Source of the DNA: an uncultured Marinomonas sp.
GTDB taxonomy: Bacteria > Pseudomonadota > Gammaproteobacteria > Pseudomonadales > Marinomonadaceae
Assembly (NCBI GenBank): GCA_963975045.1
Contig: CAXBGJ010000001.1
Location: 12,220-76,219, forward strand
Direction of reading: 5' to 3'
DNA: 64,000 nucleotides
How positions within the stretch are numbered: position 1 is the stretch's first letter; the number at the start of each line of letters is the position of its first letter. Below the pieces are notes generated by a model. It saw only the letters and a program-made list of their open reading frames with translations. It searched no databases and was not told the origin of the DNA. A program made the position numbers and the translations under genes. Shown one piece after another: positions 5,299-57,991 of this stretch.

Positions 5299-6063
5299 TT
5301 AGTGGCTGAATGTCAGTAATTCTAGGTTTCGTTGCAAGATTGTATGAACTACGCATGATGGCTTGTGTGATGGATTAGCAAGTTTCGTCGCAACGGCTAG
5401 ACAATAGTTATCCTCAAGCTGGTACTGATGGAATACCCATAAGTGTGGCATGTCTATGAGGTTTTCTGAGAATGCTATTGTGATCTTTCCAAAGGCTGAA
5501 AATGAAAAATGAAAATCCTGCAATGGGATGTTTAATCCTTTCCCCACCGCCTTAATGTAAGACTCTTTAAGAGTCCAAATTTCAAAAAATTTCAACTCCC
5601 GCTCACTTCTATTTAACATCTGTAAATAATCAATTTCGTTAGGTGCAAAAAAAGACTTAGAAATTTCATCCGCGTCGATACCTCGCTTAACATACTCTAT
5701 ATCAACACCTACTGAATGTTCACGACTGATCGCAAGTACAACTCTTCCCTCCGTATGTGACAAATTAAAATGAAGAGGCATTTCAAAAGCATGACTGGTG
5801 ATAAAAGGTTTTCCGTACTCCCCTTTTCCAAAACACCATTCACTTGGATGTACAGAAGGCTCGTAAAATGAAAGTGTTTGTCTGAGTAACGCTCGAGTGA
5901 TGAGATATTGCTTTCTTAGGTGCTCAAATGCAAAGACATTCATGGCAACTATTTCTTCTTCGTTTAATAAGTTTCTATAGTCAGCTAACACAACCAAATT
6001 ATTAATGTCAGCATCTGCTGTAACCCATACATCAACAGTATGGCAATCAGTAAACAAAGACAT
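5299..6063 (-). CDS. Sfp-type 4'-phosphopantetheinyl transferase
   Basis: GKP, FNLSHT, VGVDIE and WTLKESYIKAVGKGL motifs. Confidence 0.93.
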   Translation of the reverse strand: MSLFTDCHTVDVWVTADADINNLVVLADYRNLLNEEEIVAMNVFAFEHLRKQYLITRALLRQTLSFYEPSVHPSEWCFGKGEYGKPFITSHAFEMPLHFNLSHTEGRVVLAISREHSVGVDIEYVKRGIDADEISKSFFAPNEIDYLQMLNRSERELKFFEIWTLKESYIKAVGKGLNIPLQDFHFSFSAFGKITIAFSENLIDMPHLWVFHQYQLEDNYCLAVATKLANPSHKPSCVVHTILQRNLELLTFSH

Positions 6064-6071
6064 AAAAAACC

Positions 6072-6863
6072 TTAACTATCTGCAACGATGAGCATCTCTA
6101 GCATAGAATTTATATTATCTTTAAATATGTGAGGGCTTTCTTCATGGAAGTAAAAATGTCCACCATTTACCACTTTAAGAAAAAAGTGCTTATTCGTCCA
6201 GCTGCTCCAAGAACGTACAAGATCACTTGATACCGCCATATCTTTATTAGCAGATAAACCGATAATGGGAGAGTTTAGTGGAATTTTAACAACGGAAGAT
6301 AGATAAGACTCTAAGCACTGAAAATCTGATTGTATAACAGGAAGAATGATTTCCATCAATTCATCATTATCAAGAACATCAGAGACTGTGCCACCAAGCT
6401 TCTTCAAATAAGCAATCAGGTCTTTAGAAGGGCAGCCGCTCGCTAAGGAATGACTAGGTGCTACATCAGGCGCAGGACTACAAGAAGCGATCAACAATTT
6501 AGGGGTTTCTGTTAGGCGACAAGCAACTTCATAAGCAATTTTTGCCCCCATACTATGCCCAAAAAATATCATCCTCCCTATTTCAACATCTAATGCATTG
6601 AGTGAAATTACAATTTCGTCGGCGTAATCATATAGACTGGTTTTAAGAGGTGAACGATAACGCCATTCCCTACCAGGATATTGAATAACAATAACTTCCC
6701 ACTCCGTAGTCAACTCTTCTATATAAGAGTGAAATACCGAGGCCGAGCCACCCGCATGAGGGAATAAAACCAAGATGTCTGCATCGTTAACACTAGATTT
6801 ATGGCGTCTAAAATTCAGCTCTTGTTCTAAACAATTACTTGAAGGTCTACTATTTCCATTCAC
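6072..6863 (-). CDS. Type II (editing) thioesterase
   Basis: FPHAGGSAS, IQYPGRE, GHSMG nucleophile elbow and GGHFYF; GTG start. Confidence 0.92.
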   Translation of the reverse strand: MNGNSRPSSNCLEQELNFRRHKSSVNDADILVLFPHAGGSASVFHSYIEELTTEWEVIVIQYPGREWRYRSPLKTSLYDYADEIVISLNALDVEIGRMIFFGHSMGAKIAYEVACRLTETPKLLIASCSPAPDVAPSHSLASGCPSKDLIAYLKKLGGTVSDVLDNDELMEIILPVIQSDFQCLESYLSSVVKIPLNSPIIGLSANKDMAVSSDLVRSWSSWTNKHFFLKVVNGGHFYFHEESPHIFKDNINSMLEMLIVADS

Positions 6864-6887
6864 GATATTAACTTCAGAGGGTTCAAA

Positions 6888-8012
6888 TTATTTACCCTCA
6901 CTCTTAACATCAGGCCGGTTCGAACGATCACTCGTAGTCGGTTTTACAATATCTTCAGAGACATTAGGAACGTTGCTTTGCAGAATGACATCATCAACAC
7001 GATTTTTCCTGAACAAATCTGCATTATTCGTATTATCGTCGGTGACTCTATTTAGTATCTTCTGGAAGTTTTGACTATCAAGTGACGTTGGTCTTTCCGT
7101 CGTAATACTGGATTGATTGTTAGCTGGTTCAGAACCTCCCATATTACCTAATATTAATGGTAAACCTTCGTCGCCAGCACCAATAACAACCACCTTAGCA
7201 TTGTTTGATCCAGCCAGTGCCAGTGTTGCATCTATGCCTTTCCAGCGTAAATAACGATCTGTGATCCCATCACCAACAATATTTTGAAACTTACGAATAC
7301 CTAGTGCTTCTATCTCTTTACGTTGACTTTCTAATTTTTCACGTTGCAAACGATATTCGTAACTTAGCATTAAATGCTTTTGAGCAAGTTTTTTCTCGAT
7401 TTCATCTCGCAAATTTTTCGGTAATACGATGCTTTCTATGAGCACATCTTGTACATAGATAAAGGGCTCAGATCCTACTTCTTCATTGTATTTAACCTCG
7501 ACCTCCTCAATGACTTCTGCTTTCAGTGTGGCTTGTATTTCTTCACGCTTGTATGAGTAAATGTCTTCTGAGTTAAACTGAGCAAAGAGTAATCTTGTAT
7601 GTGCTTCAATTTCAGGAGTGAGCAATATTTTAACATATTTACTGCCAACATTTTTATACAACAAACCCACCTTGTCTGAATTTAAACGGTATCGGACAGC
7701 AATATTGACATCGATATGCAAACCATCATTGGTAAGCACATTAACAGAATCTACATCCGTTAATAATCGAACATCAAACATCTCTAGATGGTCCCATGGC
7801 CAAATAACATGTAACCCTTCACCATAAGTATTAACAACATCGGTACCGCCATTAAAGCGTTTCCATTTAACACCTGCATGACCCGCTCCTACTGTAATAA
7901 ACATGCTGTTATAAAAAAACACAGCTAAAAACAACAAAAGTAAAGCAATGAGCGACACAGGTAAAATCAGTTTATTCGCAATTTTCTTAAATTTAGATAT
8001 TGATTTAGGCAT
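6888..8012 (-). CDS. SPFH / band 7 / prohibitin-family membrane protein
   Basis: One N-terminal TM helix, then ITVGAGHAGVKW...YGEGLHVIWPW, VLTNDGLHIDVNIAVRYR, and a coiled-coil LPKNLRDEIEKKLAQ...EAEG-like segment; low-complexity C-tail. Overlaps the ABC gene by 8 bp. Confidence 0.85.
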   Translation of the reverse strand: MPKSISKFKKIANKLILPVSLIALLLLFLAVFFYNSMFITVGAGHAGVKWKRFNGGTDVVNTYGEGLHVIWPWDHLEMFDVRLLTDVDSVNVLTNDGLHIDVNIAVRYRLNSDKVGLLYKNVGSKYVKILLTPEIEAHTRLLFAQFNSEDIYSYKREEIQATLKAEVIEEVEVKYNEEVGSEPFIYVQDVLIESIVLPKNLRDEIEKKLAQKHLMLSYEYRLQREKLESQRKEIEALGIRKFQNIVGDGITDRYLRWKGIDATLALAGSNNAKVVVIGAGDEGLPLILGNMGGSEPANNQSSITTERPTSLDSQNFQKILNRVTDDNTNNADLFRKNRVDDVILQSNVPNVSEDIVKPTTSDRSNRPDVKSEGK

Positions 8013-9654
8013 CGGCGTTCTCTTTCATATAGGACACAACTTTACCTTCATCAATTCGTATTAAATAATCAGCACAATCAAAATAACGATCGTCATGTGT
8101 GATTGCGATAACAGTTTTATTCTGTTTCTTAAGGTTAGGCAATATTTCTTTGTAAAATTTACGGCGAAACTCAGGATCTTGATCCGCAGCCCATTCATCA
8201 AATATATATATTGGTCGATCCTCCATCAGACTAACCAATAGTGCAATACGCTTTTTTTGGCCGGCAGAAAGTTCAATTGTAGAAAACTCATCTGCATTTA
8301 AACTGACTTTATCATCTAGCTCCAAATATTGAATCAAACTATTCACCGTTTCCGCAGGGACATGGCGTAAACCATAAGCAATTTTAAATAAATGATATTC
8401 AGTGAAAACACAAGCCATCAAGTTTCGGTACTGTTGACTATTTTGATGCCCGATAACAGTATCATCAATTTTTATACTTCCAGAGCTTGGAAAGTAAAGT
8501 CCGGTTAATAGCTTAATAAACGTAGATTTACCAGAACCATTCCCTCCAGCAATAAAAATAATATCGCCACGACTCACTTTTAAATCAATTGGACCAATAG
8601 AAAACTGTTGATCGTCGCCCTGCTGTGGGTAAGAAAATGATACGTTGTTAAAACTAATCTGAGAAAAATTATCCAACAACTCTTGAGCAATGTGATCACG
8701 AGGATCAGCACTTTCTTTGACGACATGTTTTTCTAACTCAGCCTCCAACATATTTACATTATTAATCGCGATGTTAGCGGCATTAAACAAAGGTACTGCA
8801 CCCACTAAGCTGGAAATAGGACCGATTAAAAACAAAACTGTCGTTGTGGTTTTTATGACGACTTCACTGTAGGTATCACTGAAGTTAGGTAACAAAAACA
8901 CCATAGTTGCCAACAATAAATAAAACGTCGACTGAGAAATAATGAAATGATATGAAATATTTGTTTGTGCAATGGTTTTATTTTCTGAGGCTTGCTTTGA
9001 TATTTTATTGGCGTCGTCGTAAAGATCATCATTACGAGCTTGATTCATACGACTTTCTTTAAAACCACTTAACGCATCAGTTACACGATCAAAGAGTTTC
9101 ATCTCATCTTGTGTTGCCAAATGAATAGCTGTACTGACTTTTTTCAAAAATTTAAAATGAAAAACCAGCGCGATTGAAATAAACCCAATGGTCAAACCAA
9201 ACGCAGCAAGCGACAGCCAAGCAATATACAAAAGAGTAAAAAATATCAATACACCGGATTGAACCGCGATCACAAGCATCGGGGCCGCTTGAGAAATTGT
9301 CGTGGTTTCTTTGGTTATATTAGAAAAAATTCGAGCATCTCCAACACTCTCAATTGTCGTTAGATCACAAGCTTGAATTTTATTTACAATACTTGTTCTT
9401 ATGCGGTGAATCATACGCTCAACCTGTTGTGTTGAGGTCACCATAATATGTCGTTGCGTTAACACATAAATTGACATAGTAATAAAGAACAATAATAAGT
9501 ATTTCAAACTGGCGCTTGTTTCAGACGCGTGGTCAGCCGCAATGTTTATAATGGCAAGAATAACCGCATTACTTAAGCCAGCTAACGCAGAAATAAGTAA
9601 AAACCCCCATAAATTCCCAGAGAACTCTTTAGCAAATAGCTTTAATAGATTCAT
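8005..9654 (-). CDS. Cyclic-peptide export ABC transporter, fused permease/ATPase (PvdE/SyrD/YojI family)
   Basis: N-terminal TM domain, Walker A GGNGSGKST, signature LSAGQKKR and the family-typical FDEWAADQDPEFRRKFY. Confidence 0.93.
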   Translation of the reverse strand: MNLLKLFAKEFSGNLWGFLLISALAGLSNAVILAIINIAADHASETSASLKYLLLFFITMSIYVLTQRHIMVTSTQQVERMIHRIRTSIVNKIQACDLTTIESVGDARIFSNITKETTTISQAAPMLVIAVQSGVLIFFTLLYIAWLSLAAFGLTIGFISIALVFHFKFLKKVSTAIHLATQDEMKLFDRVTDALSGFKESRMNQARNDDLYDDANKISKQASENKTIAQTNISYHFIISQSTFYLLLATMVFLLPNFSDTYSEVVIKTTTTVLFLIGPISSLVGAVPLFNAANIAINNVNMLEAELEKHVVKESADPRDHIAQELLDNFSQISFNNVSFSYPQQGDDQQFSIGPIDLKVSRGDIIFIAGGNGSGKSTFIKLLTGLYFPSSGSIKIDDTVIGHQNSQQYRNLMACVFTEYHLFKIAYGLRHVPAETVNSLIQYLELDDKVSLNADEFSTIELSAGQKKRIALLVSLMEDRPIYIFDEWAADQDPEFRRKFYKEILPNLKKQNKTVIAITHDDRYFDCADYLIRIDEGKVVSYMKENADA

Positions 9655-9715
9655 ACAACAGATTTATACAGGTTAATTAATAGAAATTCAGCACAACCAA
9701 AAATGACTGGTTATG

Positions 9716-9883
9716 CTATACGTCACTGACTTTAGGTTTTGTGACTAGAAGTATGATCCAAGCAACTAAGGGGCTCAAAATAAGACTAACAAGAGTAAAT
9801 CCAACAAAGCCGATTACTCGATCACGTCCTATATAGCCCGCAACTAAAGACAAACTTATATACAAAATTGCTAAGAAAGACAT
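9716..9883 (-). CDS. Small hypothetical membrane protein (about 55 aa, two predicted TM helices)
   Basis: Probable start MSFLAILYISL at 9883 with a GAG upstream (the ORF track starts at 9931). Two hydrophobic stretches flank GRDRVIGF. It is co-oriented inside the cluster. Confidence 0.65.
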   Translation of the reverse strand: MSFLAILYISLSLVAGYIGRDRVIGFVGFTLVSLILSPLVAWIILLVTKPKVSDV

Positions 9884-10033
9884 AAAAATCTCATTGCTAG
9901 AGTGTCGAAAAGGCATATCAAACAATATCAATTTCTTTAAAATATAGCATGTAACTGCACAATGAAAAATACAAATACATAACCGACTAGGTTGTTATCA
10001 TAACGAACCCACACTACCGGTTTTCATTGAGAT

Positions 10034-10543
10034 TCATGCCTTACTTGGGGCTTCCGTTTTTTTCATTTCGGCACCAAACATTTTTTTCAAATGATCTTTA
10101 TTTAAGTCAAATAAACTGCCGCCTTCGCCAAAATGTTTAGCAAAAATCTTGCCCAATACATAAGTTGAAGTAGAGGCTAACGCAGGTAATGTAAATGCAC
10201 TTGCCAAAGTACCAATTCCTGGAATCGCTTTAATAAGAGAGCCCACAGCTCCGGCTGCAATGGTTTTAGGCATAAGCCCTGCAATCAATGTTGAAATAAT
10301 AACCTTACTTTTATTATCTGTAAGCTCTACTTCATAATGCTTGGCAAGCTGTTGAATCATTCGAACTTGAACCCCAGCAATGGCAGCAAAATCTAAAACT
10401 GGAATCATAACCAAACCACCAGCAGCCGCTAATTTGCTATGAAATTTAACAATATCCATTGCATCGGAACTTTTTTCGCCAGCTCCAATCTCTTCTGAAT
10501 TATTTGCTTCCATTTCAATTTCTTCTGAGTTATTTCCTTTCAT
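10034..10543 (-). CDS. DUF697 / YcjF-like protein
   Basis: AAAGGLVMIPVLDFAAIAGVQVRMIQQLAKHY and KAIPGIGT...ASTSTYVLGKIF pattern typical of DUF697; GAGG SD upstream of the ATG. Confidence 0.72.
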   Translation of the reverse strand: MKGNNSEEIEMEANNSEEIGAGEKSSDAMDIVKFHSKLAAAGGLVMIPVLDFAAIAGVQVRMIQQLAKHYEVELTDNKSKVIISTLIAGLMPKTIAAGAVGSLIKAIPGIGTLASAFTLPALASTSTYVLGKIFAKHFGEGGSLFDLNKDHLKKMFGAEMKKTEAPSKA

Positions 10544-10546
10544 TTG
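10487..10546. repeat. Imperfect 30-bp tandem duplication spanning the DUF697 start codon
   Basis: aatctcttctgaattatttgcttccatttc / aatttcttctgagttatttcctttcatttg; encodes MKGNNSEEI-E-MEANNSEEI. Confidence 0.8.
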
Positions 10547-10832
10547 AATTACCTCTAAGTTAGGACGATCAAGAGATTACCATTTTTAACTATAGACAAA
10601 AATAATAAGCTATTCCTAGCAATAGTACTAGGGCAATTATTATAAAACATTCAGTCGCGAAAACCATACCAATAGATAAATACCAATTATAGTAGAACCT
10701 ACACATTTCTGTTGTATTTTCATGTTGAAAAATACGTTATAAATAAGAGACTTAATATAATTTATAACATTTTTCACATCTTCCCTACTACCTTTAGGCA
10801 TTTTATTTGTGTAAACAAATAATACTGATATT

Positions 10833-13800
10833 TCACTTACCCAATTCAGTTTTCGCTAAAATAAACTTGAGTTGAGGATCTTTTAATAAATTATCATGTG
10901 TCCCATTAGGTACGACTGTTATAGCAACCGACTGACAATAATTAGTCCAAATTTGCTCCGGATCGGCGTCTTTCCAAGCAGGGTTATCCGCCGCTGTTAT
11001 AATGGTCATACTGCCGTCATAGTAGCTTGGCTCATAAGTACTATATGCTTTCATCGAAGCAAGAATGACCTTTGATAAGCGCTGTAATGAGAGTAAATCA
11101 AACCAAACCGGTAATACTTTTTGAAGAATACCTTGCTCAAGTAAACACTCAATGTTGTTCTCAGTATGTTCTTCAAGCGAAATACCCATAGCATTTGCTG
11201 TAAATAATATAGGATTAGCGAAATGACCACTCAGGTCTTCGTCAAAGCTAGAAAATGGTGCCGCATCAATCATCATTAATTGCGAGACATGATGCCCTTG
11301 TCGCTGCAATTGCAACGCAACTTCAAAGGCAATCATGCCACCTAAAGACCAACCCATAAGTCGATAAGGGCCATTGGGCTGAACATTCAATATTTCACTG
11401 ACATAACGTTCAGCCATCAGCTCAACACGATCCAAAGCCTGATCATTATCTTTTATTCCGGGCGCCTGAAACCCGTAAAAACTTTGGTCACTGGCAAGTC
11501 GTTGACTAAGTTCGTAATAACACAACGGTATACCCGTAAGTGGTGAAAACGCAAAAATTGGCTTCGGCAAAGCAGTCTCACGTGTTTCTACCGCATCAGA
11601 AATCACTTTAAACGGAATTAAAACACTCGTATCGCTTTCGTTATTTACCTCGATCCAATTCGCCATTTTTTCTACCGTCGGGTATTGGAATACGGCCGCC
11701 ATAGGCACCGTTATATTCATGCTTTTACGAATTTGATCAACCAATTTCATTACTGTCATTGAGTGTCCCCCTAATGCAAAGAAGTCATCCGTAATACCAC
11801 AACGGCCAACCCCCGTCACATCAGACCATGCCTGAAGTAATTGCATTTCAACATGAGTACGTGGTGCCATTTGATTTGCCTGTTCTGAGTCGCCTTCTTG
11901 TATACCTAAAACGCAAGTGGGGTCAGGCAAGGTCGCTCGGTTCAATTTACCGTTTATGGTCATAGGGAGATTAGATAAAATAGTGTAGCTTGCTGGCCAC
12001 ATGTGTTCCGGTAACTTATTTTTAATGGCTCGAGCCAGCCCTTCAATTAGCTCATTGTCGTGCATCACTTGTTCTTTGGGTGAATTACTAAGCATCGATG
12101 CATTACTTACAGAGCCAAAATCATGTAATTCATTAACAGTTTGATGGAGCGTTTTCACACTATGCACATCTAAACTGCTTAAATATATCACTGCACTAAA
12201 GCCATATTCGCGATCTACACAGGGCATAATACGCACCGCATAACCCTTTAATTCTACTTGTTCAGCCAGTTCCTCTGGGTTAATAGCCTTACAGGTATTG
12301 GTTATCAAACCTAACTGTCTATAGGTCTCCGCCACACGTTTATCCAATACGTAAGGTAAATAAACAAACGTCGATGTCATTTCTTTTGCATCAAGAGAGA
12401 CTATCAAGTCTTCAATCGACGAAAGCTCATTCATAACAATCGGCTGTGTTATTGAGTCCGTCACGTTAAACTCTGCATTCTTCTCATCACTCAACGGATC
12501 ACGTTTCCAAAAGCAAACATCATAACGATAATTAACCATTTCGTTATCTTGATGTCCGCGCTGATAGTCAACACTAAAGCCTGCCACCTGATTGTTATCA
12601 CGAGAAAAATCAGAAAACAATGCTGGAGAAAGTACTAATTCATACTCATTTTTCAAGCGTGATTGAGCCAAATGCAGTACTTCGTTTGCAGACATTATCT
12701 TTGCGTGCACTTCGTTGTCATACTGGATTACTGAGGCATGAAAACCGGTTAATCTAGGTAAACTCCGAATATCACCGAGGAAAAGCGTACCTGATGGTTT
12801 GAGCATCTTCATAGATTGCTCTAATACTTTCTGTAGGTAGACCTGATTAGGAAAATACTGCACCACAGAATTAAGAATAACCAAATCATAAAAAGCGTCT
12901 TCACATTGTGAGAGATCATGCGCAGCCCCTACTTGCAACTCAACATGCTTCCAATTGCGTGCAAGTGCTTGTTGCTTCAACTTAGTAATCGTCGCTTGCG
13001 ATATATCTATTCCTCGGTAATGTGATACATGCGGTGCCAAACCATGCAATATCATGCCACTGCCACAACCTATCTCGAGTACTTTGCGGGGATTTAAACT
13101 TCTTAACCGTTGCAGTCGAGATGAAAGCCATTCACGCATAATATGGGACGGAATTAGCGACTGAGTATAACTGCTGTTCCACCCTCGAATATCAAAGCCA
13201 TCATCATTCACCTCTGCTGAGTTTTCTTCGTAAACGCTTTCATACAAGGTCTGCCAACTCTTCAATACATCATTGTTAAGCTTCTGATCATCATTCAATG
13301 CGTTGTTAGGTACAATATAAGCGGCAAGTGTTGCGTTGTCTTGGCCAGCATTAAGTACTTTCACTGCTGCCTGCTGCACCGACTTATGCTCCGTCAGATG
13401 CGCTTCTATTTCTTCTAATTCGATACGAAAACCACGTAATTGAACCTGCTGATCGATTCGACCAAGGTACTGCAGATGTCCAGGGATCGTTCTTCGTGCC
13501 AAATCACCCGTTCGGTAAAGCCGTGAACCATCAACAGAATAGGGATCAGGAACAAATTGAACTGCAGTTAATGACGCTTTATTTAAATAACCGCGACTCA
13601 CCCCCATACCACCCACATAGATTTCACCAACCACCCCCACAGGCACAGAGTTCATAGCGCTATCCAACAAGTGAACCTGTAAATGACTGATCGCGTCGCC
13701 GATATGACTGCTTGATTGATGAGTCATCATCTCATCAATCTCTTGATACGTAACATGTACCGTTGTCTCGGTAATACCATACATGTTGACCAAGCGGCAT

Positions 13801-49736: not shown

Positions 49737-52700
49737 ATTTCAATCACTTCTCGACTATCATCCATAACATCTGGTTCAAATTGTTGCTGAATGTCATATA
49801 CGAGACTCTCCACACTGGCACCTTGAATAATATCAACGGTGCGGATCACAACGCGGAAATCAGCCTCTATACGACTTTTCAATGTCACGGCCATTAACGA
49901 ATCAAAACCTTGCTCAATAAGAGGTTTTCTTAATTTCAGTGACTCAACACTGGTCGCCATTAAATTGGCCACCTCTAGTGTTAACCAATCAAAAACAGAG
50001 CGATTAGCCCCATTAAACATGTCAATTTCTTCGTGATTATAATTTACCGCTAACACCTCTGAGCCCACCTCTTCATGACGAGAAAATAAGTTTTGTATTA
50101 GTCCATCTCGCTCAAGCTCAGGTACGATTTTCAGCAAATCATCCAGAGGTCCAGGAATAACAAAAATATCAGCAGGAAAAAGACTTCTATCAGCAGGGTG
50201 ATTTTTTAACATCGATATGCTCCATTCCAGCATATCCATACCGGCCTGTAATTCGATTGTTTGCACCCCATGACGATTGACTAAATCCACTACCTTTTGT
50301 GCGGCTACACCCGCTTTTTCCCAAACCCCCCAAGATAACGTTAAAGCATTCAAACCACCCATTCGAGCTTGATGACTTAAACCTGACTGAAAACCATTCG
50401 CCGCAGCATAGATAGCTTGACCTTGAGGAGCTAATACACTGGCGGCAGAACCAAACATAATAAAAAAATCTAAGGGCCGGCTGTAACGCTCAAAGTACTC
50501 AAGCAAACATTGGCTTCCCTTCGCCTTCGCAGACATAACATCATCAATATGATCCATATCGACGCGCTCAATTAGTGAGCCCTGTAGATCGCCAGCCAGT
50601 TGAATAACCCCTTTTATTGGATGGGTTAATTCTGCCTCGATTTTTCTCAAAGTACCGAATATCTTGTCTATGTTGCCGTCACCAACGTCTAAGTCAACAA
50701 CGTCAATTTGCACTCCGGAGCGTTTCCAGTGTTCAAATAAATCACTATTTTCCAGTGCTTTTTGTATGGCTGTACGACTTGTTAACACAAGAGATCGAGC
50801 ACCCATTGCTATTAAGCGTCCAACCGTTTCAATCCCCAACACACCAAAGCCACCAACGACCAAATAGCTCCCATCACCCTCAAGCACCTGTTGCACAGGA
50901 TTATAATCACCCATCAGAGAAGCTTGTAGTGGCACTAGCACTGGTTCGAAAGTAATGTTATTCCGATAAACACGGTGTTTCATCGGCGCCTTACTGGATG
51001 TGTTTTTTTGCAGCAACACAGCGAGATTATTGACCCCATTCGAGCGTTCATCGAAATCCACTAAGCGCAATGGAATCCTTGTAAACTCACGATTCACCAC
51101 ACGTCCAAATGCCCAAAGTGCAGCACCTTCAGGGTGGATTATATTGTTATCTTGATCGCTGATTTTTTGACTAGAATGGGTCGCTAAAATAAAGCTGTCT
51201 AATAAGATGTGCTTTTGGTTGATGACAGAAAACATCACAGATAACACCAGCAAAGTATCAGTAACGGAATACGTTACAGTGTCATCAGCCCAAAACACAC
51301 AATGGCTTATTTCTTCATGAAGCACTAAATCGAAGATACTAGACCAAGCTAGAGGATCATCTAAAGACAAAGAAATGGATTGCTGAGTTTGGTTAAAGCC
51401 ACGGTAATCAGACGAAAGATCAACAAGCCAAACCCTATGGCCTAAGGCTTCTAAAGCCTGAACTTGAGCATCACATGCTGGTGAAGAACGTCGTAATAAT
51501 AGTATTTTTTGCGTGGAGACAACCTGAGGTGCGGATTCCTCGTTGCATTCCTGCCAATCAATGAAGTACGCACAAGCATTGGCTAAGCGTGCTTTACTCA
51601 TGCTTTGATCAGCATCATGACACTTTTGTGCAACTATAATATGCTGCCCAAGCACGCTTGCTGCGCTGTGTTTTTCAGGGAAAGAATGGCCTAATTCAAA
51701 ACCACAACCCTCAAGCAAATCTATCCAGATTTTCGACGACAACAAAGGTGTATTAGTGCGGATACCATCATCAAATACCCCCCACCCCTCGATGAGTCCA
51801 ATTGACATATCCACCCAAGGTTGCGCATTTGTCAGTTCGTATAAAAGAATCATCGCACCGGAACGCATCACACTATTGAGCTGTGCAAGAGTTTGCTTTA
51901 GGTCACTAACCGCATGCAGCACATTCGCGCCCAGCACAATATCAAACAATGCCTCGTCAAGGTCTTCTAACTGAGGAGCTAGTGGTGTTTCTAAGTTTAT
52001 CGTCTTAAAGGTAACAAAATCATATTCTGCAAACAGCGCTTTAGCACGTTCAAAAAACATCGGCGTAACATCACTAAAATAATACTCTATGGGAGCATCA
52101 CTAACATTAGAGAAATTTTCTGCCAGGGATGGAATGAGAGATCGAGTTAACCCTCCGGTGCCCGCTCCAACCTCCAAGATACGCAGTGGTTTTTTGCTCT
52201 TTTTTTGATTCGCCAAGACACTCAGGTACCGTAAACAACTACGCACAGCTATGCTGTTAAAGTACTGCACCAACGGCCAGTCATGATATAGCTTTTCAAC
52301 CAACTCAAGTGAACCTTGCGGAAACAAAAGTTCGAGCGGGTTAAATTCACCGATTAAAGTCTGTGTTAGCTGCCGATCACAATGCTCTAAATAGTTGAAT
52401 AAAAACTCACCGTCATCACCGTCAAAATACTCAGCGCACTTGATTTGAGCCTTAAATCTGTTTTCATCAAGGGATGATGCGCCCTCATTGAGAAAATATT
52501 GCTTATCAAAACTATCTTCATCAACATGGGTCGAGGTATGAAGAATGCCCACATTACTCAGGTGATCTAACCAGCGCTCAACCAATGGCAAATAATCATT
52601 TTTAATATCTGTTTTATCAATAAAGCGTCTAACCGTAACACCCTGCTTTAATAAACCTTTCCCATCAATTTTGACCAACGCTACAGCCATTGAATAAACG

Positions 52701-55700
52701 GCATAGTCGTTTAAGTTGTCCCAAGATTGCTCGCATTTATCCAAGGATAAATCCATCGGTAAGTACGTGCTTTGTCGTTGAATCTCTTTGACGATTAAAG
52801 GCCATTGCTGAAATATTATAGGCCGATAAACGGCTTCATTGTCTATTTCAGGCAATGTAGGGAGCTCAACCGGCATAACTTGTTGTAGATGTGGATACCA
52901 AAAAGTTTGTTGTTGCCAAGGGTAGGTTGGTAGTTGATAAGTGGGGGCTGCCGCGATATTTATATCCGCAATCGCGTCTTCGTTAATTAACGTCCAATCT
53001 AATACGCCATCATGTTCATAAGACCTAGCCAACACCTTATGCAGCTGGCTTAATGCGGGTACTTTCAGACCTTCCCTTGAGTTAGACTTAATCAAAGTGG
53101 CCATGGTAAAACCAGACTGAGATAGACCCCGTAAGTTCGCTTGAATGACTGGCGACAGTATGGCGCCTGGACCAATTTCAATAAAATTTCGATAGCCTTC
53201 AGAAACCGCCCGCTCAATAGCCTGCTTAAAGTGCACCGTATTGCGAATATTATTCGCCCAATACCGAGCATCATAATACGTCGAGGTTACCCCATCCCCA
53301 GCACTTGTGGAGAACATGTCTACTGAACTGCTCAGTCCATCAACTTTTGCCAATTTTCCAATAAGTACAGATTCTAATGGCGCCATGTTTGCACTGTGAA
53401 ATGCGTATGGCATAGCCATTCGGTGAAACTCAATATTATTTTGCATAAGATAATGTGAAAAGTTTTCAATAGCCCCATTATCCCCACTAACCACGCAAGC
53501 AAGTGCGCTGTTGTCGGCGGCAACTTCTACCGAAAAACCGGATATTACAATGAGTTCTTCAACCGCCTGAGCAGACATCCTCAGTGCTAACATGCCGCCT
53601 TTTCCGTGTGCATCATGCATAACTTCACCACGACCAAGGATAACTCGCACTGCGGTATCGAGGGATATTTTTCCGGCCACGTAAGCCGCAGCCACCTCCC
53701 CCATACTGTGACCGACAACTGCTGAAGGTAATACGCCACACTGGCGCAGATAATCTGCTGTTGCCACTTGTAGCGCAAAAATCATTGGCTGAATAAAGCG
53801 AGTTTGATCTGTTAAAGATTCCTTTTCCAGTTGCTCAACAACCGACCAACCAGCGTGCTTTTGAACCAACTGATCGATGGAGTTTAATGCGCGATTAAAC
53901 ACGCTAGAACTTGCTCTAAGCTCCTGCCCCATACCCAACCACTGATTGCCCTGCCCACTAAACACAAAAACATGTCCCGCAGTAACATCAATATCTCGTG
54001 TTTTAGATGACCACGCCAATTCTTGTCTTAACGCTTCTGCGGCAAGAGTCAGTTTTTCGACAAACTCATCAACATGGCAACATGAAAGTGTAATACGGTG
54101 GGAGATATGATCTCTATTATGTATAAGCTGTGACGCTAACAACGCTAATTGCACATCATTCTCACCCACAAAGGCGAGTAATTGCTCAACACGCATCAAT
54201 AACGCTTTGGGCGTATTAGCAGAAACAGGAATCAGCAGCGGTCGATTTTCTTGAACAACGTACGATGACTGGCGACTTGGCAATGTATCATCAGCACGCC
54301 CCAAAATAACATGAGCATTTGCGCCACCAAAACTAAACGCGCTTACCCCAGCAAAAAGTGGCTCGCTGAACTCGGTATTTGACGTTTTAGAAGATCCGGA
54401 TTGAGTGCTTAAACAGGTATTCTTTTGAGCGATGGCTAAGTTGTCTCCAAGCTCAATCATTGGGTTTAATTGTTGGCAATTAATCGTGCTAGGCAACATT
54501 TTATAGTGCAATGACAGCACACTTTTAATTAGACCGGCCAAGCCTGCCGCCGCCTCCAAATGACCAATATTACTCTTTGCCGAGCCGACTAAACATTTGC
54601 GTTTTCGCGCCCCTGAACCTTGGCTCATCAAACGTTTTAAAGCCCCCACTTCAATTGGATCGCCAAGGGGCGTTCCCGTACCATGAGCTTCAAAAAAACT
54701 AATATCATCAATGGTTTTATGAGCCGCCTTTAACGCTTGAGTAATAACCTCTTCTTGAGCCAAGCCATTCGGCGCCGTAAGTCCGTTACTTCGACCATCT
54801 TGGTTTAAAGCAGAACCTTCGATAACCGCTAACACTCTATTGCCTTGCGCTTGTGCAACATCCAACGGCTGCAACATCAATACCGCTCCGCCTTCTGCAC
54901 GAACATAGCCGTCCGCCTCAGCTGAAAAAGTTCGGCAAGCACCTGTTGGCGATAACATATTAGCTTGCGACAAACCCACTGCGACATCAGGCGATAATAT
55001 TAGATTTACACCACCTACTAAAGCCTGATCGCAATCACCAGCCTGAAGGCTGCGACAAGCTTGGTGAATCGCCACCAAGGATGATGAGCAGGCCGTGTCT
55101 ATGGCCATACTCGGCCCTTTGAAATCAAAAAAGTAAGATAGACGATTCGCCGCAATACTGTGCGCATTACCTGACGCTTGATAAGCACTAATATTTTCCA
55201 GCGCAGAACCTGCCAGCGCATCATAATCGTGTGTACTTATACCAACAAAAACCCCTGTATTACTCCCAGATAGAGCCTCACGAGTAAATCCAGCAGATTC
55301 GATTGCTTCCCAGGAAAGTGCCATCAATAACCGTTGCTGAGGGTCCATTGAATTTGCTTCACGCGCTGAAATACCAAAAAAATCGGCATCAAAACCAGTC
55401 ACATTGTCGAGAAAACCCGCAGTGTTAAGCTTATTCTTTTCAACCGAACCGTAGTCTTTTAATAATGCGTCCGACCAACGCTCATCTAACCTTTTAGAAA
55501 CGCTATGTTGATTGTTGAGCAACAATTGCCAATATTCATCTATATTGCTGGCTCCAGGGAAACGACAAGACATAGCAACAATAGCGATACGAGAGGAATG
55601 TTTATTCACCTCACCCACAGGTAAAGGCTCATTATGCTTTGCAGGAGAAATAAGATGATCACATAAGGCATTAATCGTTGAGTATTGATACAGCACCGTT

Positions 55701-57676
55701 GGGTCCAACGGCTGATTTAACCGCTCCGACAGACGCCCCGTCAGACCGACCGATTGACGCGAGTTCAATCCATATTCTTTTAACGGTCGATCAAATTTTA
55801 TGGAAGAGACCTCTGCAGAAGGTATTTCCAGTAATTCAGCAATCTGCGATCTTAACCAAGACTTTAACTCAAAAGCGCCTGCATCGGCTTCAGCCCTCTC
55901 TTTAGACTCACCCCCATAAAGAATATGGGGATCTAAATCGGCAAACACTTTCAACTCCTGATTCAATAATTTTTGTTTGCTTAACGAACGCTGAATTTTG
56001 CCACTTGATGTTTTATCAATTGAGCCTGGTCGAACCAATACTAAGCGGCTTAACGACAAACCCAGCTCTTCTGAAATAGTGGAGGCGACTGCAGCAAAAA
56101 CCTCTTCAAGGTCTAAGTTATTACGCTCTGTTCGCTTTACCTCCTGTATCAATACTAAACGCTCTAATCCATCATCATATAAACCGAAAGCTGCCCCTCC
56201 ATCCGCCTCTAAAGCGGAGTGACTTTGAGCCGCCATTAATTCAATATCTTGGGGATAATAGTTATTGCCATCGACAATAATGACATCCTTTAGACGGCCA
56301 TTAACAAATAACTCTCCATCACAATCTAAAAAGCCTACGTCACCAGTGCGTAAATACTCACCGCGCCCAGCAAAACCTAAAGCGATACCGTAAGTACTTT
56401 TAGTTTTTGCGTCATCAGCCCAATAACCAGAAGTAATAGTTTTCCCTGCCAACCATATTTCTCCAATATGCCAAGCCTCTAAACGCTCTCCTGTTACGGG
56501 ATTAACAATCGCAATATCAACACCACTGGCCGCTCTACCTGAGCTAACTAACCTCTGACCTGCATTACCATCTAGTGACTCTACCGCGCATCCTTGTCGC
56601 AACGAGACAGGATCAAAGGACTTAATGACCAACATTTTTTTAATCCCACTGTCTGTGACCATTAATGTTGATTCTGCCATGCCATAGCCAGGCATTTGCG
56701 CTTCAGGTCTGTATCCAAAGGGTTTAAAAGCGTCAGCAAAAGCCTCTACACTACTGACACGGATTGGCTCTGCTCCATTTAATAAAGACCGCCAATTTGA
56801 AAGATCGAGTTCAAGCAGCCCCGCAGGATTATTTCGCTTGAATCGCTCTAGTGTTGATACCGCTAAATCAAGAGCGAAATTAGGAGCGAAACTATGGGTA
56901 ATACGGTATTTAGAAAGCGCAGTCAGCCAAAGCATAGGAGTTTGAATAAATGTTGCCGGGGCCATCAAATAACCTTTGACCCCTATATACAGCGGCATAA
57001 TGTAACCACATATCAATCCCATATCATGATAGTGAGGCATCCAACTAAGCTGACGACTTTCTTCATTAAAATCTAAGGCAGAGCATAATATATCAAGGTT
57101 GCACAATAAATTTTCACCACTAACGATGACACCTTTAGGGTCTGAAGTAGAGCCCGATGTGTACTGTAACAATGCGATTTCATCATATCTTGAGGTGATA
57201 GAGATTATTTTTGCATCCGGCTCTTTATAACTCAAATCCGTTGCCATAACTCTGCAAGCATCGAGCTCTTTTAAATCTTCCAACTGGAGCCAATCATTTA
57301 ATTTTACTAAGGAGGTTTCAGTTGTAAGAAGGCACGAACTGTCGGCATCGTTTAGAACTTTTCGAATACGTCCCCAGTGTCTTACATTACGAGGAGGGTA
57401 AACCGGTATGGCGACAACACCCGAGTACAGACACGCTAAAAAGGCGATGAGGAAATCCAATCCTGATGGATAAAGTAACACCACTCTCTCGCCTGATTGA
57501 GAGTGCAACATAATCTCTTTTGCTACTTTTCGAACTCGATCAAGCAATGTTGCATAATTTAACTCTAATGCTTCACTTCCGTTTTGTAGATATACATAAG
57601 CCGTTTTATTCGGGGTTTTCTGAGCTCTATCAACTAAAATTGCAATTATTTCATGGCAAACATCTTCGTTAATCAT
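49733..57676 (-). CDS. Loading and PKS protein: FAAL-ACP-KS-AT-cMT-KR-ACP
   Basis: FAAL: LQYTSGSTSDPKGV, WMPHYHDMGLI. ACP: GLNS. KS: DTACSSS, HGTGT, NIGHLEAAAG. AT: GHSMG, YAFH. C-MT: LEVGAGTGG, ANVLHA. KR: GGFGVLG, YAAAN. ACP: GFDS. Confidence 0.95.
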   Translation of the reverse strand: MINEDVCHEIIAILVDRAQKTPNKTAYVYLQNGSEALELNYATLLDRVRKVAKEIMLHSQSGERVVLLYPSGLDFLIAFLACLYSGVVAIPVYPPRNVRHWGRIRKVLNDADSSCLLTTETSLVKLNDWLQLEDLKELDACRVMATDLSYKEPDAKIISITSRYDEIALLQYTSGSTSDPKGVIVSGENLLCNLDILCSALDFNEESRQLSWMPHYHDMGLICGYIMPLYIGVKGYLMAPATFIQTPMLWLTALSKYRITHSFAPNFALDLAVSTLERFKRNNPAGLLELDLSNWRSLLNGAEPIRVSSVEAFADAFKPFGYRPEAQMPGYGMAESTLMVTDSGIKKMLVIKSFDPVSLRQGCAVESLDGNAGQRLVSSGRAASGVDIAIVNPVTGERLEAWHIGEIWLAGKTITSGYWADDAKTKSTYGIALGFAGRGEYLRTGDVGFLDCDGELFVNGRLKDVIIVDGNNYYPQDIELMAAQSHSALEADGGAAFGLYDDGLERLVLIQEVKRTERNNLDLEEVFAAVASTISEELGLSLSRLVLVRPGSIDKTSSGKIQRSLSKQKLLNQELKVFADLDPHILYGGESKERAEADAGAFELKSWLRSQIAELLEIPSAEVSSIKFDRPLKEYGLNSRQSVGLTGRLSERLNQPLDPTVLYQYSTINALCDHLISPAKHNEPLPVGEVNKHSSRIAIVAMSCRFPGASNIDEYWQLLLNNQHSVSKRLDERWSDALLKDYGSVEKNKLNTAGFLDNVTGFDADFFGISAREANSMDPQQRLLMALSWEAIESAGFTREALSGSNTGVFVGISTHDYDALAGSALENISAYQASGNAHSIAANRLSYFFDFKGPSMAIDTACSSSLVAIHQACRSLQAGDCDQALVGGVNLILSPDVAVGLSQANMLSPTGACRTFSAEADGYVRAEGGAVLMLQPLDVAQAQGNRVLAVIEGSALNQDGRSNGLTAPNGLAQEEVITQALKAAHKTIDDISFFEAHGTGTPLGDPIEVGALKRLMSQGSGARKRKCLVGSAKSNIGHLEAAAGLAGLIKSVLSLHYKMLPSTINCQQLNPMIELGDNLAIAQKNTCLSTQSGSSKTSNTEFSEPLFAGVSAFSFGGANAHVILGRADDTLPSRQSSYVVQENRPLLIPVSANTPKALLMRVEQLLAFVGENDVQLALLASQLIHNRDHISHRITLSCCHVDEFVEKLTLAAEALRQELAWSSKTRDIDVTAGHVFVFSGQGNQWLGMGQELRASSSVFNRALNSIDQLVQKHAGWSVVEQLEKESLTDQTRFIQPMIFALQVATADYLRQCGVLPSAVVGHSMGEVAAAYVAGKISLDTAVRVILGRGEVMHDAHGKGGMLALRMSAQAVEELIVISGFSVEVAADNSALACVVSGDNGAIENFSHYLMQNNIEFHRMAMPYAFHSANMAPLESVLIGKLAKVDGLSSSVDMFSTSAGDGVTSTYYDARYWANNIRNTVHFKQAIERAVSEGYRNFIEIGPGAILSPVIQANLRGLSQSGFTMATLIKSNSREGLKVPALSQLHKVLARSYEHDGVLDWTLINEDAIADINIAAAPTYQLPTYPWQQQTFWYPHLQQVMPVELPTLPEIDNEAVYRPIIFQQWPLIVKEIQRQSTYLPMDLSLDKCEQSWDNLNDYAVYSMAVALVKIDGKGLLKQGVTVRRFIDKTDIKNDYLPLVERWLDHLSNVGILHTSTHVDEDSFDKQYFLNEGASSLDENRFKAQIKCAEYFDGDDGEFLFNYLEHCDRQLTQTLIGEFNPLELLFPQGSLELVEKLYHDWPLVQYFNSIAVRSCLRYLSVLANQKKSKKPLRILEVGAGTGGLTRSLIPSLAENFSNVSDAPIEYYFSDVTPMFFERAKALFAEYDFVTFKTINLETPLAPQLEDLDEALFDIVLGANVLHAVSDLKQTLAQLNSVMRSGAMILLYELTNAQPWVDMSIGLIEGWGVFDDGIRTNTPLLSSKIWIDLLEGCGFELGHSFPEKHSAASVLGQHIIVAQKCHDADQSMSKARLANACAYFIDWQECNEESAPQVVSTQKILLLRRSSPACDAQVQALEALGHRVWLVDLSSDYRGFNQTQQSISLSLDDPLAWSSIFDLVLHEEISHCVFWADDTVTYSVTDTLLVLSVMFSVINQKHILLDSFILATHSSQKISDQDNNIIHPEGAALWAFGRVVNREFTRIPLRLVDFDERSNGVNNLAVLLQKNTSSKAPMKHRVYRNNITFEPVLVPLQASLMGDYNPVQQVLEGDGSYLVVGGFGVLGIETVGRLIAMGARSLVLTSRTAIQKALENSDLFEHWKRSGVQIDVVDLDVGDGNIDKIFGTLRKIEAELTHPIKGVIQLAGDLQGSLIERVDMDHIDDVMSAKAKGSQCLLEYFERYSRPLDFFIMFGSAASVLAPQGQAIYAAANGFQSGLSHQARMGGLNALTLSWGVWEKAGVAAQKVVDLVNRHGVQTIELQAGMDMLEWSISMLKNHPADRSLFPADIFVIPGPLDDLLKIVPELERDGLIQNLFSRHEEVGSEVLAVNYNHEEIDMFNGANRSVFDWLTLEVANLMATSVESLKLRKPLIEQGFDSLMAVTLKSRIEADFRVVIRTVDIIQGASVESLVYDIQQQFEPDVMDDSREVIEI

Positions 57677-57790
57677 TTACAAGAATCCCTGTCAAACGCC
57701 ATCAGACATTTACAAAAAAAAACAATTCAATGCTATTAAAATCGAATAAAATGCATTACTAAAGAAAGCATTTAGAATGAAATTATAACG

Positions 57791-57991
57791 TTATTTCTCT
57801 AGAGCCTTACGTAAACTAAGGGGACGCATATCAGTCCAAACCTCTTCAATATAATCTAAACATTCCTGTCGATTTTTTTTATGTCCAACGGCTTCCCAAC
57901 CATTAGGCATTTCTTTTTCTGATGGCCAGATAGAATATTGCTCTTCATGATTGACAACCACATAGTACTCCAAAGTATCTTCGTAATTCAT
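57791..57991 (-). CDS. mbtH: MbtH-like protein
   Basis: [12 protein letters not shown]...PNGW...[17 protein letters not shown] with three conserved Trp; GAGG SD. Confidence 0.97.

What the first reader, a model, noticed from the sequence alone, without database searches (positions are those of the whole stretch)
5299..57991. Complete orphan FAAL-PKS/NRPS cluster predicting an N-methylated, hydroxy-amino-acid-rich lipodecapeptide
Seen: an uninterrupted assembly line of 1 PKS and 10 NRPS modules plus a TE, with its own MbtH, TEII, PPTase and exporter, and no tailoring or precursor-supply genes. Established knowledge: Stachelhaus pocket codes and C/E typing. Inferred product: (2-methyl-3-hydroxy acyl)-Ser1-X2-Ser3-D-aromatic4-Ser5-D-X6-aliphatic7-NMeThr8-Ile9-NMeThr10. 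Ser/Thr residues alternate with hydrophobic or D residues, which suggests an amphipathic (depsi)peptide. I do not recognise this as a characterised compound.
Basis: partly seen in the sequence, partly recalled or inferred. Interest (0 to 1): 0.85.

Follow-up and report, generated by a model that had tools for sequence, protein, structure and literature searches.

The report
Orphan Marinomonas lipopeptide synthetase island
A marine Marinomonas genome carries an intact 54-kb gene island that should build a fatty-acid-tailed, serine/threonine-rich ten-residue peptide not matched to any known compound. One of its ten amino-acid-loading domains is dead, and the island is present in only part of the natural population.

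Summary
On the minus strand, 5299-57991, lie MbtH, one FAAL-ACP-KS-AT-cMT-KR-ACP protein, three NRPS proteins (10 modules, 2 E domains, 2 embedded methyltransferases, a terminal TE), a cyclic-peptide ABC exporter, SPFH, DUF697, TEII and an Sfp-type PPTase. All frames are open and all catalytic motifs are intact, with one exception.

The exception is module 2. Its A-sized segment has lost every core motif and has no Pfam hit, so residue 2 cannot be read by collinearity. The only relative found (45-48% identity, a MAG contig) has the same dead domain with intact C2, T2 and C3. This argues for loading of T2 by another A domain rather than recent decay.

New here:
- The cluster lies on a 54.26-kb strain-variable island (about 5142-59402). 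An empty-site allele coexists with it in the same metagenome at about 2:1.
- It is absent from 63 other Marinomonas species genomes.
- No named homologue exceeds about 40-48% identity, and no Marinomonas lipopeptide is in the literature searched.

Verdict: a real, probably functional, orphan cluster and a new member of a known kind. Interest is moderate, not 0.85. MIBiG comparison and chemistry remain undone.

The parts
5142..59402 (.). Strain-variable genomic island (54,261 bp) that holds the whole cluster
   Evidence: In metagenome X1 a 112-nt contig (depth 57.3) runs along window 5065-5141 and then continues with ATTAA followed by the sequence that starts at window 59403. This is the empty-site allele. 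Depths: island 28.1, both flanks 84-85 (57.3+28.1=85.4). X9 shows the same 1:3 ratio. In X4 one 45-kb contig spans cluster to right flank.
57791..57991 (-). MbtH-like protein (66 aa)
   Evidence: Pfam PF03621, 82 bits
49733..57676 (-). FAAL-ACP-KS-AT-cMT-KR-ACP loading/extension protein (2647 aa)
   Evidence: Pfam hits. Motifs: KS DTACSS/HGTGT/GHLE, AT GHSMG + YAFH, cMT ILEVGAGTG, KR GGFGVLG + YAAAN. Best relatives with the same architecture are 46-48% identical.
27288..49736 (-). NRPS-B (7482 aa): TubC_N dock, M1 C-A(Ser)-T, M2 C-A*(dead)-T, M3 C-A(Ser)-T, M4 C-A(aromatic-like)-T-E, M5 C-A(Ser)-T, M6 C-A(?)-T-E
43347..44876 (-). Degenerate, catalytically dead A domain of module 2 (NRPS-B residues 1621-2130)
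   Evidence: No Pfam hit at E<=10. Only 31.5 bits, colinear, against an HMM built from the cluster's own A domains. A3, A5, A7 and A8 are lost, part of A6 is deleted, and the A10 Lys is Arg. The model still resembles PheA (TM 0.60). The same state is seen in the L089 relative.
19409..27313 (-). NRPS-C (2634 aa): M7 DCL-C-A(aliphatic?)-T, M8 C-A(Thr, MT inserted)-T
10833..19382 (-). NRPS-D (2849 aa): M9 C-A(Ile/Val-like)-T, M10 C-A(Thr, MT inserted)-T-TE
   Evidence: Colinear with NRPS-C at 44% identity over 2591 aligned positions, consistent with an old bimodule duplication. TE has GWSLG and a C-terminal GTHD.
10034..10543 (-). DUF697 protein (169 aa)
   Evidence: Pfam PF05128
9716..9931 (-). 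Small hydrophobic ORF (71 aa); coding status unproven
   Evidence: ORF list; no family hit
8005..9654 (-). Cyclic-peptide export ABC transporter (SyrD/PvdE type)
   Evidence: NCBIfam TIGR01194, 344.7 bits against a cutoff of 286.2
6888..8012 (-). SPFH/Band-7 protein; overlaps the ABC gene by 8 bp
   Evidence: Pfam PF01145; gap table
6072..6863 (-). Type II thioesterase
   Evidence: Pfam PF00975, 113.8 bits; GHSMG motif
5299..6063 (-). Sfp/HetI-type 4'-phosphopantetheinyl transferase
   Evidence: Pfam ACPS + AASDHPPT_N. The best NCBIfam hit is HetI, below its equivalog cutoff.
4038..5232 (+). Boundary repeat: GntR-family regulator gene (4394-5113) and its surroundings, duplicated on contig C22
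   Evidence: C22:513-1706 is 94% identical to C1:16257-17451, and the proteins are 100% identical. Loose ends at 5232 continue into C22:1707.
59078..59376 (.). Copy of a ~300-nt dispersed repeat just inside the right end of the island
   Evidence: 10 other copies at 67-76% identity on 7 contigs, three of them on C22 and two of those flanking its GntR copy. Very high depth of short contigs at this spot in the metagenomes.

Best explanation
This is an intact hybrid FAAL-PKS/NRPS biosynthetic gene cluster in a marine Marinomonas population. It is carried on a 54-kb accessory island.

Inferred pathway:
- The FAAL activates a fatty acid and loads it on ACP.
- One KS-AT-cMT-KR-ACP round turns it into a 2-methyl- (or 2,2-dimethyl-) 3-hydroxyacyl thioester.
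- The thioester passes through a TubC-type docking pair to C1.
- The chain is then extended: Ser1, residue 2, Ser3, D-aromatic-like 4, Ser5, D-X6, aliphatic 7, methyl-Thr8, Ile/Val9, methyl-Thr10.
- The terminal TE releases the chain, probably as a macrolactone.
- The SyrD/PvdE-type ABC transporter exports it.

Module 2 has a dead A domain that is kept as a folded spacer. Its intact T2 is most likely charged with serine by one of the neighbouring, closely related Ser-activating A domains (A1 or A3), which would give Ser1-Ser2-Ser3.

Shown: gene and domain content, motif integrity, pocket codes, death of A2 and its conservation, island boundaries and population frequency.

Inferred: every chemical step, the identity of residue 2, N- rather than O-methylation, and cyclisation.
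For: Architecture and motifs.

Pocket codes. DVWHISLVDK is reported as Ser (PMC12964202) and DFWNVGMVHK as Thr (PMC9113097).

D/L typing: E4 and E6, GGDSI carriers, and a C5+C7 clade with support 1.0.

Methyltransferase: the A(MT) of M10 aligns over its full length with the interrupted A-M-A structure 5wmm (E 5e-119). The nearest named relatives are N-methylating synthetases, pristinamycin I synthase 3/4 and OciB.

Dead A2:
- No Pfam hit, weak colinear homology only, motif losses.
- The model keeps an ANL-like fold (pLDDT 63.5; TM 0.60 to 1amu).
- The only relative (L089, PKS 48%, NRPS 45.5% colinear) has the same dead domain, with HHLIADG in C2, GGHSL in T2 and HHLIFDG in C3.
- Between two natural strains there are no indels or stops in it, and pN/pS is 0.33 (P for neutrality 0.005), against 0.27 for A3 and 0.10 for A1.
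- No stand-alone A or A-T gene exists in the island. The only other NRPS in the genome is a multidomain synthetase beside a TonB receptor.
- A1, A3 and A5 are 61-62% identical Ser domains. T2 is closest to the Ser carrier T5 (43%).

Precedents for carriers loaded by another module's A domain or by a separate A-T: capreomycin CmnI (PMC12400406); syringomycin, albicidin, ramoplanin (PMC8949500).

Exporter: TIGR01194 above its cutoff.

Reality of the sequence: it is present, with SNPs only, in metagenomes of five studies.
Against: - No expression or metabolite data, and no RNA run holds the sequence.
- Three pocket codes (M4, M6, M7) match nothing I could find.
- T2 is only 31-33% identical to T1 and T3, so nothing singles out A1 or A3 as the loader.
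- The pN/pS estimates rest on one strain pair with 19-26 SNPs per domain. They do not differ significantly between dead and live domains (Fisher P 0.14).
- The structure model used an alignment that contained live A domains, so the retained fold is partly imposed.
- An MT domain of this position can in principle be an O-methyltransferase.
- The genome is a fragmented, probably metagenome-assembled one (388 contigs).
Confidence: 0.7

Rival explanations
1. Module 2 is skipped. The acyl-Ser1 chain passes over C2/T2 to module 3, and the product is a lipononapeptide.
For: A2 cannot adenylate. No dedicated trans-loading enzyme is encoded in the island. Module skipping is a documented exception to collinearity (PMC8949500).
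Against: C2 (HHLIADG), T2 (GGHSL) and C3 keep their catalytic motifs in two lineages that are only about 45% identical. The whole 1000-aa module is kept in frame in all strains sampled. A useless module would be expected to decay or be deleted over that distance.
Confidence: 0.17
2. T2 is loaded in trans by an enzyme encoded elsewhere in the genome, so residue 2 is something other than Ser.
For: Inactive in-line A domains in albicidin, ramoplanin and enduracidin are complemented by separate A-T proteins (PMC8949500). The assembly is fragmented (388 contigs), so a gene could have been missed.
Against: tblastn with two A domains finds only this cluster and one multidomain NRPS on C116 (code DTWDYGYI-K, beside a TonB receptor). 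It finds no stand-alone A or A-T. The island moves as a unit between strains, which favours self-sufficiency.
Confidence: 0.1
3. The cluster is silent or on its way to loss, a non-functional accessory island, so no product is made in nature.
For: It is absent from about two thirds of the cells in two samples and from 63 other Marinomonas species. There is no transcript evidence and no regulator inside the island.
Against: About 47 kb of synthetase ORFs carry no stop or frameshift in any of four independent assemblies. There is purifying selection on A1, A3 and even A2. A dedicated PPTase, TEII, MbtH and exporter are all intact.
Confidence: 0.08
4. The placement in Marinomonas is an assembly or binning artefact, and the cluster belongs to another organism.
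For: The left junction lies in a ~1.2-kb repeat (GntR copy, also on C22) where all Logan assemblies break. In X4 the left flank is at lower depth (27) than the cluster (43-60). Tetranucleotide correlation of the island with the rest of the genome is 0.93, against a median of 0.97.
Against: The right junction is spanned by a single 45-kb contig in X4. The empty-site contig joins the same left and right flanks, and depths add up (57.3+28.1=85.4). Both flanks are Marinomonas-like: TctA is 95% identical to M. phaeophyticola, and a SoxA-like gene 27 kb to the right is 85-88% identical to several Marinomonas genomes. Island GC is 42.4% against 43.2% for the genome.
Confidence: 0.04

Closest known systems
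Uncharacterised MbtH / FAAL-PKS(cMT-KR) / NRPS cluster on MAG contig JBFPDY010000321.1 (GCA_041156805.1; locus L089)
   Same: Same gene order mbtH, FAAL-ACP-KS-AT-cMT-KR-ACP, NRPS. The PKS is 48% identical. The NRPS is colinear at 45.5% over residues 7-2687. M1 has a Ser code (DVWHISLVDK). Module 2 has the same dead A domain with intact C2, T2 and C3.
   Different: The contig ends inside C3, so the rest of the line is unknown. The flanking genes differ. Its dead A domain is about 60 aa longer, and its A10 position is Glu rather than Arg. No product is known.
FAAL-initiated PKS/NRPS lipopeptide lines of cyanobacteria (hassallidin, puwainaphycin/minutissamide, hapalosin types; from my own knowledge, not tested here)
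   Same: A fatty acyl-AMP ligase loads an ACP, one PKS round modifies the beta position, and a multimodular NRPS with embedded methyltransferases and a terminal TE follows. N-methyl-Thr occurs in hassallidins. 2-methyl-3-hydroxy acyl units arise from the cMT+KR logic.
   Different: Module order and pocket codes differ. There is no aminotransferase, glycosyltransferase or halogenase here. The host is a gammaproteobacterium. The best cyanobacterial PKS hits are only 38-39% identical and cover about 60% of the query.
Pseudomonas cyclic lipopeptide synthetases (syringomycin, viscosin families)
   Same: Gram-negative host, Ser/Thr-rich lipopeptide, SyrD/PvdE-family ABC exporter (TIGR01194). In syringomycin, one module has no working A domain and is supplied from elsewhere (PMC8949500).
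   Different: Those lines start with a starter C domain that takes acyl-CoA, not a FAAL-PKS. They use dual C/E domains and tandem TEs, and they lack N-methylation. Here E domains are separate and there is one TE.
Assembly lines with an inactive or missing A domain (albicidin, ramoplanin, enduracidin, capreomycin CmnI)
   Same: An in-line module whose carrier must be charged by an A domain that is not its own (PMC8949500; PMC12400406).
   Different: In albicidin and ramoplanin a separate A-T protein is encoded in the cluster, but none is here. In capreomycin the module simply lacks an A domain. Here a full-length, folded, dead A domain is conserved in two distant lineages.

Membership tests
Hybrid type I PKS / NRPS lipopeptide biosynthetic gene cluster | Fatty acyl-AMP ligase fused to or followed by an ACP | tested here: met
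   AMP-binding 16-419 plus an AMP-dom_DIP2-like C-terminal part and PP-binding 607-675 in one protein. The homologue P0071 is named long-chain-fatty-acid-ACP ligase. The FAAL-specific insertion was not examined.
Hybrid type I PKS / NRPS lipopeptide biosynthetic gene cluster | Condensing KS (Cys-His-His), AT, carrier, with optional cMT and KR | tested here: met
   DTACSS, HGTGT, GHLE, GHSMG, ILEVGAGTG, GGFGVLG and YAAAN motifs; Pfam hits.
Hybrid type I PKS / NRPS lipopeptide biosynthetic gene cluster | Every NRPS module has C, A and T domains with catalytic motifs | tested here: not met
   Nine of ten modules comply. Module 2 has C and T but a dead A domain.
Hybrid type I PKS / NRPS lipopeptide biosynthetic gene cluster | Chain-release domain at the end of the last module | tested here: met
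   Thioesterase PF00975, 100 bits, GWSLG.
Hybrid type I PKS / NRPS lipopeptide biosynthetic gene cluster | A lipopeptide product is actually made | not testable with these tools
   No culture, MS or transcript data. The RNA run search was empty.
Cyclic peptide export ABC transporters (TIGR01194; SyrD/PvdE type) | Score above the curated NCBIfam cutoff over the full length | tested here: met
   344.7 bits against a cutoff of 286.2, residues 18-543 of 549.
Interrupted A domains with an N-methyltransferase (TioS A4-M-A4 type) | MT inserted in the C-terminal subdomain of the A domain, with an intact SAM motif | tested here: met
   VLEIGCGSG lies between A7 and A10 in M8 and M10. Full-length alignment to 5wmm, E 4.9e-119.
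Interrupted A domains with an N-methyltransferase (TioS A4-M-A4 type) | Methyl group goes to the alpha-amino nitrogen, not to the Thr hydroxyl | tested here: inconclusive
   Named relatives are N-methylating synthetases. No O-methyltransferase reference was available for comparison.
A characterised (MIBiG) cluster with a known product | Same module order and high identity to a curated entry | not testable with these tools
   MIBiG and antiSMASH are not on hand. Indirect evidence: no named protein above about 40% identity to the PKS or to the terminal NRPS in 5.8 billion proteins. No Marinomonas lipopeptide turned up in three literature searches.

The most novel reading that the evidence does not exclude
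The dead A2 is not decay but a conserved pseudo-enzyme. It is a folded scaffold that positions T2 so that a neighbouring Ser-activating A domain (A1 or A3) charges two carriers. This gives a Ser-Ser-Ser motif in a previously unknown family of N-methylated lipodecapeptides. The whole pathway travels as a 54-kb island that segregates (about 1 cell in 3) within natural Marinomonas populations, implying a frequency-dependent or niche-specific benefit.
Probability: 0.3. Interest if true: 0.6.

Novelty: new member of a known kind. Interest (0 to 1): 0.45.

Why it matters
If the product is made, it would be the first lipopeptide assigned to Marinomonas in the literature searched here. Its scaffold (three to four Ser, two methyl-Thr, two D residues, a branched hydroxy acyl tail) matched no paper in that literature and no compound I can recall.

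The conserved dead A domain offers a clean natural case for studying how one A domain serves two carriers. This bears on NRPS engineering.

The coexistence of island-positive and empty-site cells in the same seawater samples makes the ecological value of a 54-kb secondary-metabolite island directly measurable.

None of this overturns current understanding. It is a good genome-mining target rather than a surprise.

Tried and rejected
1. Scanning GTDB species genomes with the dead-A segment found no relative.
2. GC content as a sign of foreign origin was rejected. The cluster (42-45%) matches the genome mean of 43.2%, and it is the immediate flanks that are low. Tetranucleotide correlation (0.93) is low but within the range of other contigs.
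3. The Rieske / GS-like / CHMI / reductase operon (59648-64000) was considered as precursor supply for the odd residues 4 and 6. It lies outside the island at flank depth, is present in empty-site cells, and is not next to the related clusters. It was therefore rejected as part of the BGC.
4. Looking for the empty site in sister species failed. In G020 the genes after GntR are unrelated. The right-flank GS-like gene is unique to this species.
5. Promoter and terminator scans were at chance level.
6. Pfam on the small ORFs in the 1.6-kb upstream gap, and an Rfam scan, gave nothing above threshold.
7. A full-length homologue search with NRPS-D timed out. It was repeated on residues 1950-2849.
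8. The genome behind L089 is not held, so the rest of the related cluster could not be fetched.
9. T-domain similarity did not identify which A domain loads T2.
10. Searching papers for the unassigned pocket codes found nothing.
Full report
**Observation**

The window holds eleven co-directional minus-strand genes between 5299 and 57991. Gaps between them run from -26 to +289 bp.

Pfam on module-sized pieces and a motif scan give this line:
- MbtH.
- FAAL-ACP-KS-AT-cMT-KR-ACP (2647 aa).
- NRPS-B (7482 aa): TubC_N dock, then M1 C-A-T, M2 C-A*-T, M3 C-A-T, M4 C-A-T-E, M5 C-A-T, M6 C-A-T-E.
- NRPS-C: M7 C-A-T, M8 C-A(MT)-T.
- NRPS-D: M9 C-A-T, M10 C-A(MT)-T-TE.
- DUF697, a 71-aa hydrophobic ORF, an ABC exporter, SPFH, TEII and an Sfp-type PPTase.

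The exporter scores above the curated cutoff of TIGR01194, cyclic peptide export (344.7 against 286.2 bits).

**Specificities and stereochemistry**

- M1, M3 and M5 carry Ser codes. DVWHISLVDK is reported as Ser in PMC12964202.
- M8 and M10 carry Thr codes. DFWNVGMVHK is Thr in PMC9113097.
- M9, DAFFLGITFK, is Ile/Val-like by my recollection of published codes.
- M4 (DAAAVVAVCK), M6 (DVYYLGGVCK) and M7 (DAFVLGMTYK) match nothing in the paper library.

T4 and T6 carry GGDSI and are followed by E domains with HHxxxDA. C5 and C7 form a separate, well-supported clade with the QEGML/QAGML N-terminal signature of DCL domains. D residues at positions 4 and 6 are therefore well founded.

C1 (PHIAVDG) and C5 (DHRQLDG) keep the second, catalytic His.

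The AT has GHSMG, QPMIF and YAFH. This is mostly malonyl-like, so the branch methyl should come from the cMT. One versus two methyl groups cannot be told.

The MT-interrupted A domain of M10 aligns end to end with the A-M-A crystal structure 5wmm. Its nearest named relatives are N-methylating synthetases. N-methylation is likely but O-methylation is not excluded.

**Module 2**

The 510-aa segment between C2 and T2 (window 43347-44876) has no Pfam hit even at E<=10. Against an HMM built from the nine live A domains of this cluster it scores 31.5 bits, in three colinear pieces.

In the alignment:
- The P-loop (A3) is gone.
- NxYGPTE (A5) reads NVVCSPNG.
- About 29 residues around A6 are deleted.
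- YRTGD (A7) reads HKATGL.
- GRxDxQVKIRG (A8) reads GTTDQPNWYDG.
- The A10 Lys is Arg.

It cannot adenylate. Yet C2 (HHLIADG), T2 (GGHSL) and C3 (HHLAFDG) are intact.

An AlphaFold model is of middling confidence (pLDDT 63.5, with the P-loop region disordered). It still superposes on PheA (TM 0.60). Live A domains were in the input alignment, so this is weak support for a retained fold.

**The dead domain is old and maintained**

A search of 1.84 billion representative proteins gave only one protein that matches the N-terminal core of the segment (P0121, E 2e-43). All other hits cover only the C-terminal subdomain at about 25% identity.

P0121 and locus L089 (a 24-kb MAG contig) belong to one related cluster:
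- MbtH.
- A FAAL-PKS of the same architecture (48% identity).
- An NRPS colinear with NRPS-B residues 7-2687 at 45.5%.

Its module 1 is also Ser. Its module 2 has the same motif-less A segment, with Glu at the A10 position, flanked by intact C2, T2 and C3 motifs.

Identity falls from about 50% in C2 to 14-34% in the dead core, and recovers to 34-46% in the C-terminal subdomain and T2.

Within the species, contigs from four independent metagenome studies cover the segment with substitutions only, no indels or stops. Against the most divergent strain (X9), pN/pS is 0.33 in the dead domain (12 synonymous, 14 non-synonymous; P 0.005 against neutrality). It is 0.27 in A3 and 0.10 in A1. These numbers are small, but they do not look like a free-running pseudogene.

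**Who loads T2?**

The island encodes no stand-alone A or A-T. The only other NRPS in the 3.79-Mb assembly is a multidomain enzyme next to a TonB-dependent receptor, with an unrelated code.

A1, A3 and A5 are 61-62% identical Ser domains. The dead A2 is equidistant (17-20%) from all A domains. T2 is closest to the Ser carrier T5 (43%) but not to T1 or T3.

Published precedents exist for carriers charged by another module's A domain (capreomycin CmnI, PMC12400406) and for inactive in-line A domains (albicidin, ramoplanin; PMC8949500).

My best reading is cis or neighbour loading with Ser (about 0.5). Next come skipping (about 0.2) and an unlinked loader (about 0.1).

**Where the cluster sits**

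The TctA gene on the left flank is 95% identical to M. phaeophyticola. A SoxA-like gene 27 kb to the right is 85-88% identical to several Marinomonas genomes. The host is therefore a Marinomonas.

None of 63 other Marinomonas species genomes has an orthologue of the PKS (best partial hit 47% over about 300 residues; no full-length orthologue) or of the dead-A segment.

The sequence occurs in marine and estuarine metagenomes of five studies.

Laying their contigs on the junctions shows a depth step:

| Run | Left flank | Cluster | Right flank |
|---|---|---|---|
| X1 | 85 | 28 | 84 |
| X9 | 40 | 13.5 | 36-41 |

In X1 a short contig of depth 57.3 follows the left flank to 5141, then reads ATTAA, then the sequence starting at 59403. 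This is the empty site, and 57.3+28.1 equals the flank depth.

In X4 a single 45-kb contig spans the cluster into the right flank.

The cluster is therefore a 54,261-bp island (about 5142-59402) carried by roughly one cell in three in two samples.

The left end abuts a ~1.2-kb repeat (a GntR gene duplicated on contig C22). The right end contains a ~300-nt dispersed repeat with 10 other copies on 7 contigs, two of them flanking the C22 GntR copy. No integrase or transposase was found.

The Rieske/GS-like operon upstream lies outside the island and is not part of the BGC.

In X4 the left flank is at lower depth (27) than the cluster (43-60). I cannot explain this. It may mean a different left context in that population.

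**Novelty**

No protein with a name exceeds about 40% identity to the PKS or to the terminal MT-T-TE region among 5.8 billion sequences. Three literature searches found no Marinomonas lipopeptide or depsipeptide. MIBiG could not be consulted.

The logic (FAAL, one PKS round, collinear NRPS, TE, SyrD-type exporter) is entirely familiar. So is the idea of a non-functional A domain.

I class this as a new member of a known kind, with three features worth a follow-up:
- A conserved dead A domain.
- Two or three unassigned pocket codes.
- A cleanly delimited, segregating island.

Interest is 0.45.

Noticed in passing
window 4038-5232 and genome contig C22:513-1706: The GntR-family regulator gene next to the island is duplicated. 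The protein is 100% identical and the DNA 94% identical over 1196 bp. All four metagenome assemblies break in this repeat.
   Followed up: partly
window 59078-59376: A ~300-nt dispersed repeat with 10 other copies (67-76% identity) on 7 contigs, often at contig ends. Two of the three copies on C22 flank its GntR copy, which hints that these repeats mediate rearrangements at the island borders.
   Followed up: partly
window 59648-64000: A CHMI-like tautomerase, GS-like ligase, Rieske oxygenase (LigXa-type) and ferredoxin reductase operon. The GS-like gene has no orthologue (E<=1e-100) in 63 other Marinomonas species genomes. The operon lies outside the NRPS island, at flank depth.
   Followed up: partly
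genome contig C116:3951-10274: A second NRPS (at least C-A-T-C-C, A code DTWDYGYI-K) beside a TonB-dependent receptor gene, probably a siderophore synthetase. It is cut by the contig end.
   Followed up: partly
window 2000-4100 versus 5276-9000 in run X4: In X4 the left flank has lower depth (27) than the cluster (43-60), the reverse of X1 and X9. The island may sit in a different left context in that population.
   Followed up: no
window 39927-43166 (C3 of NRPS-B): C3, the domain that takes the chain from T2, is the most divergent LCL-type C domain of the line (17-24% identity to the other C and E domains) and has an unusual HHLAFDGHS motif. I did not test whether it is a specialised subtype, for example one acting on Ser.
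   Followed up: no
L089:840-2794: The related cluster on the MAG contig also lies a few kb from TctA/TctB transporter genes, as does the window's cluster (TctB/TctA at 3-1816). This may be coincidence or shared ancestry of the neighbourhood.
   Followed up: no
window 59546-59693 (+): Weak Rfam match to psRNA2 (23.1 bits against a gathering score of 65; E 0.005), far below threshold and probably chance.
   Followed up: no
window 10833-27313: NRPS-C and NRPS-D are colinear at 44% identity over 2591 aligned positions. Modules 7-8 and 9-10 are an old bimodule duplication in which only the first A domain changed its pocket code.
   Followed up: yes
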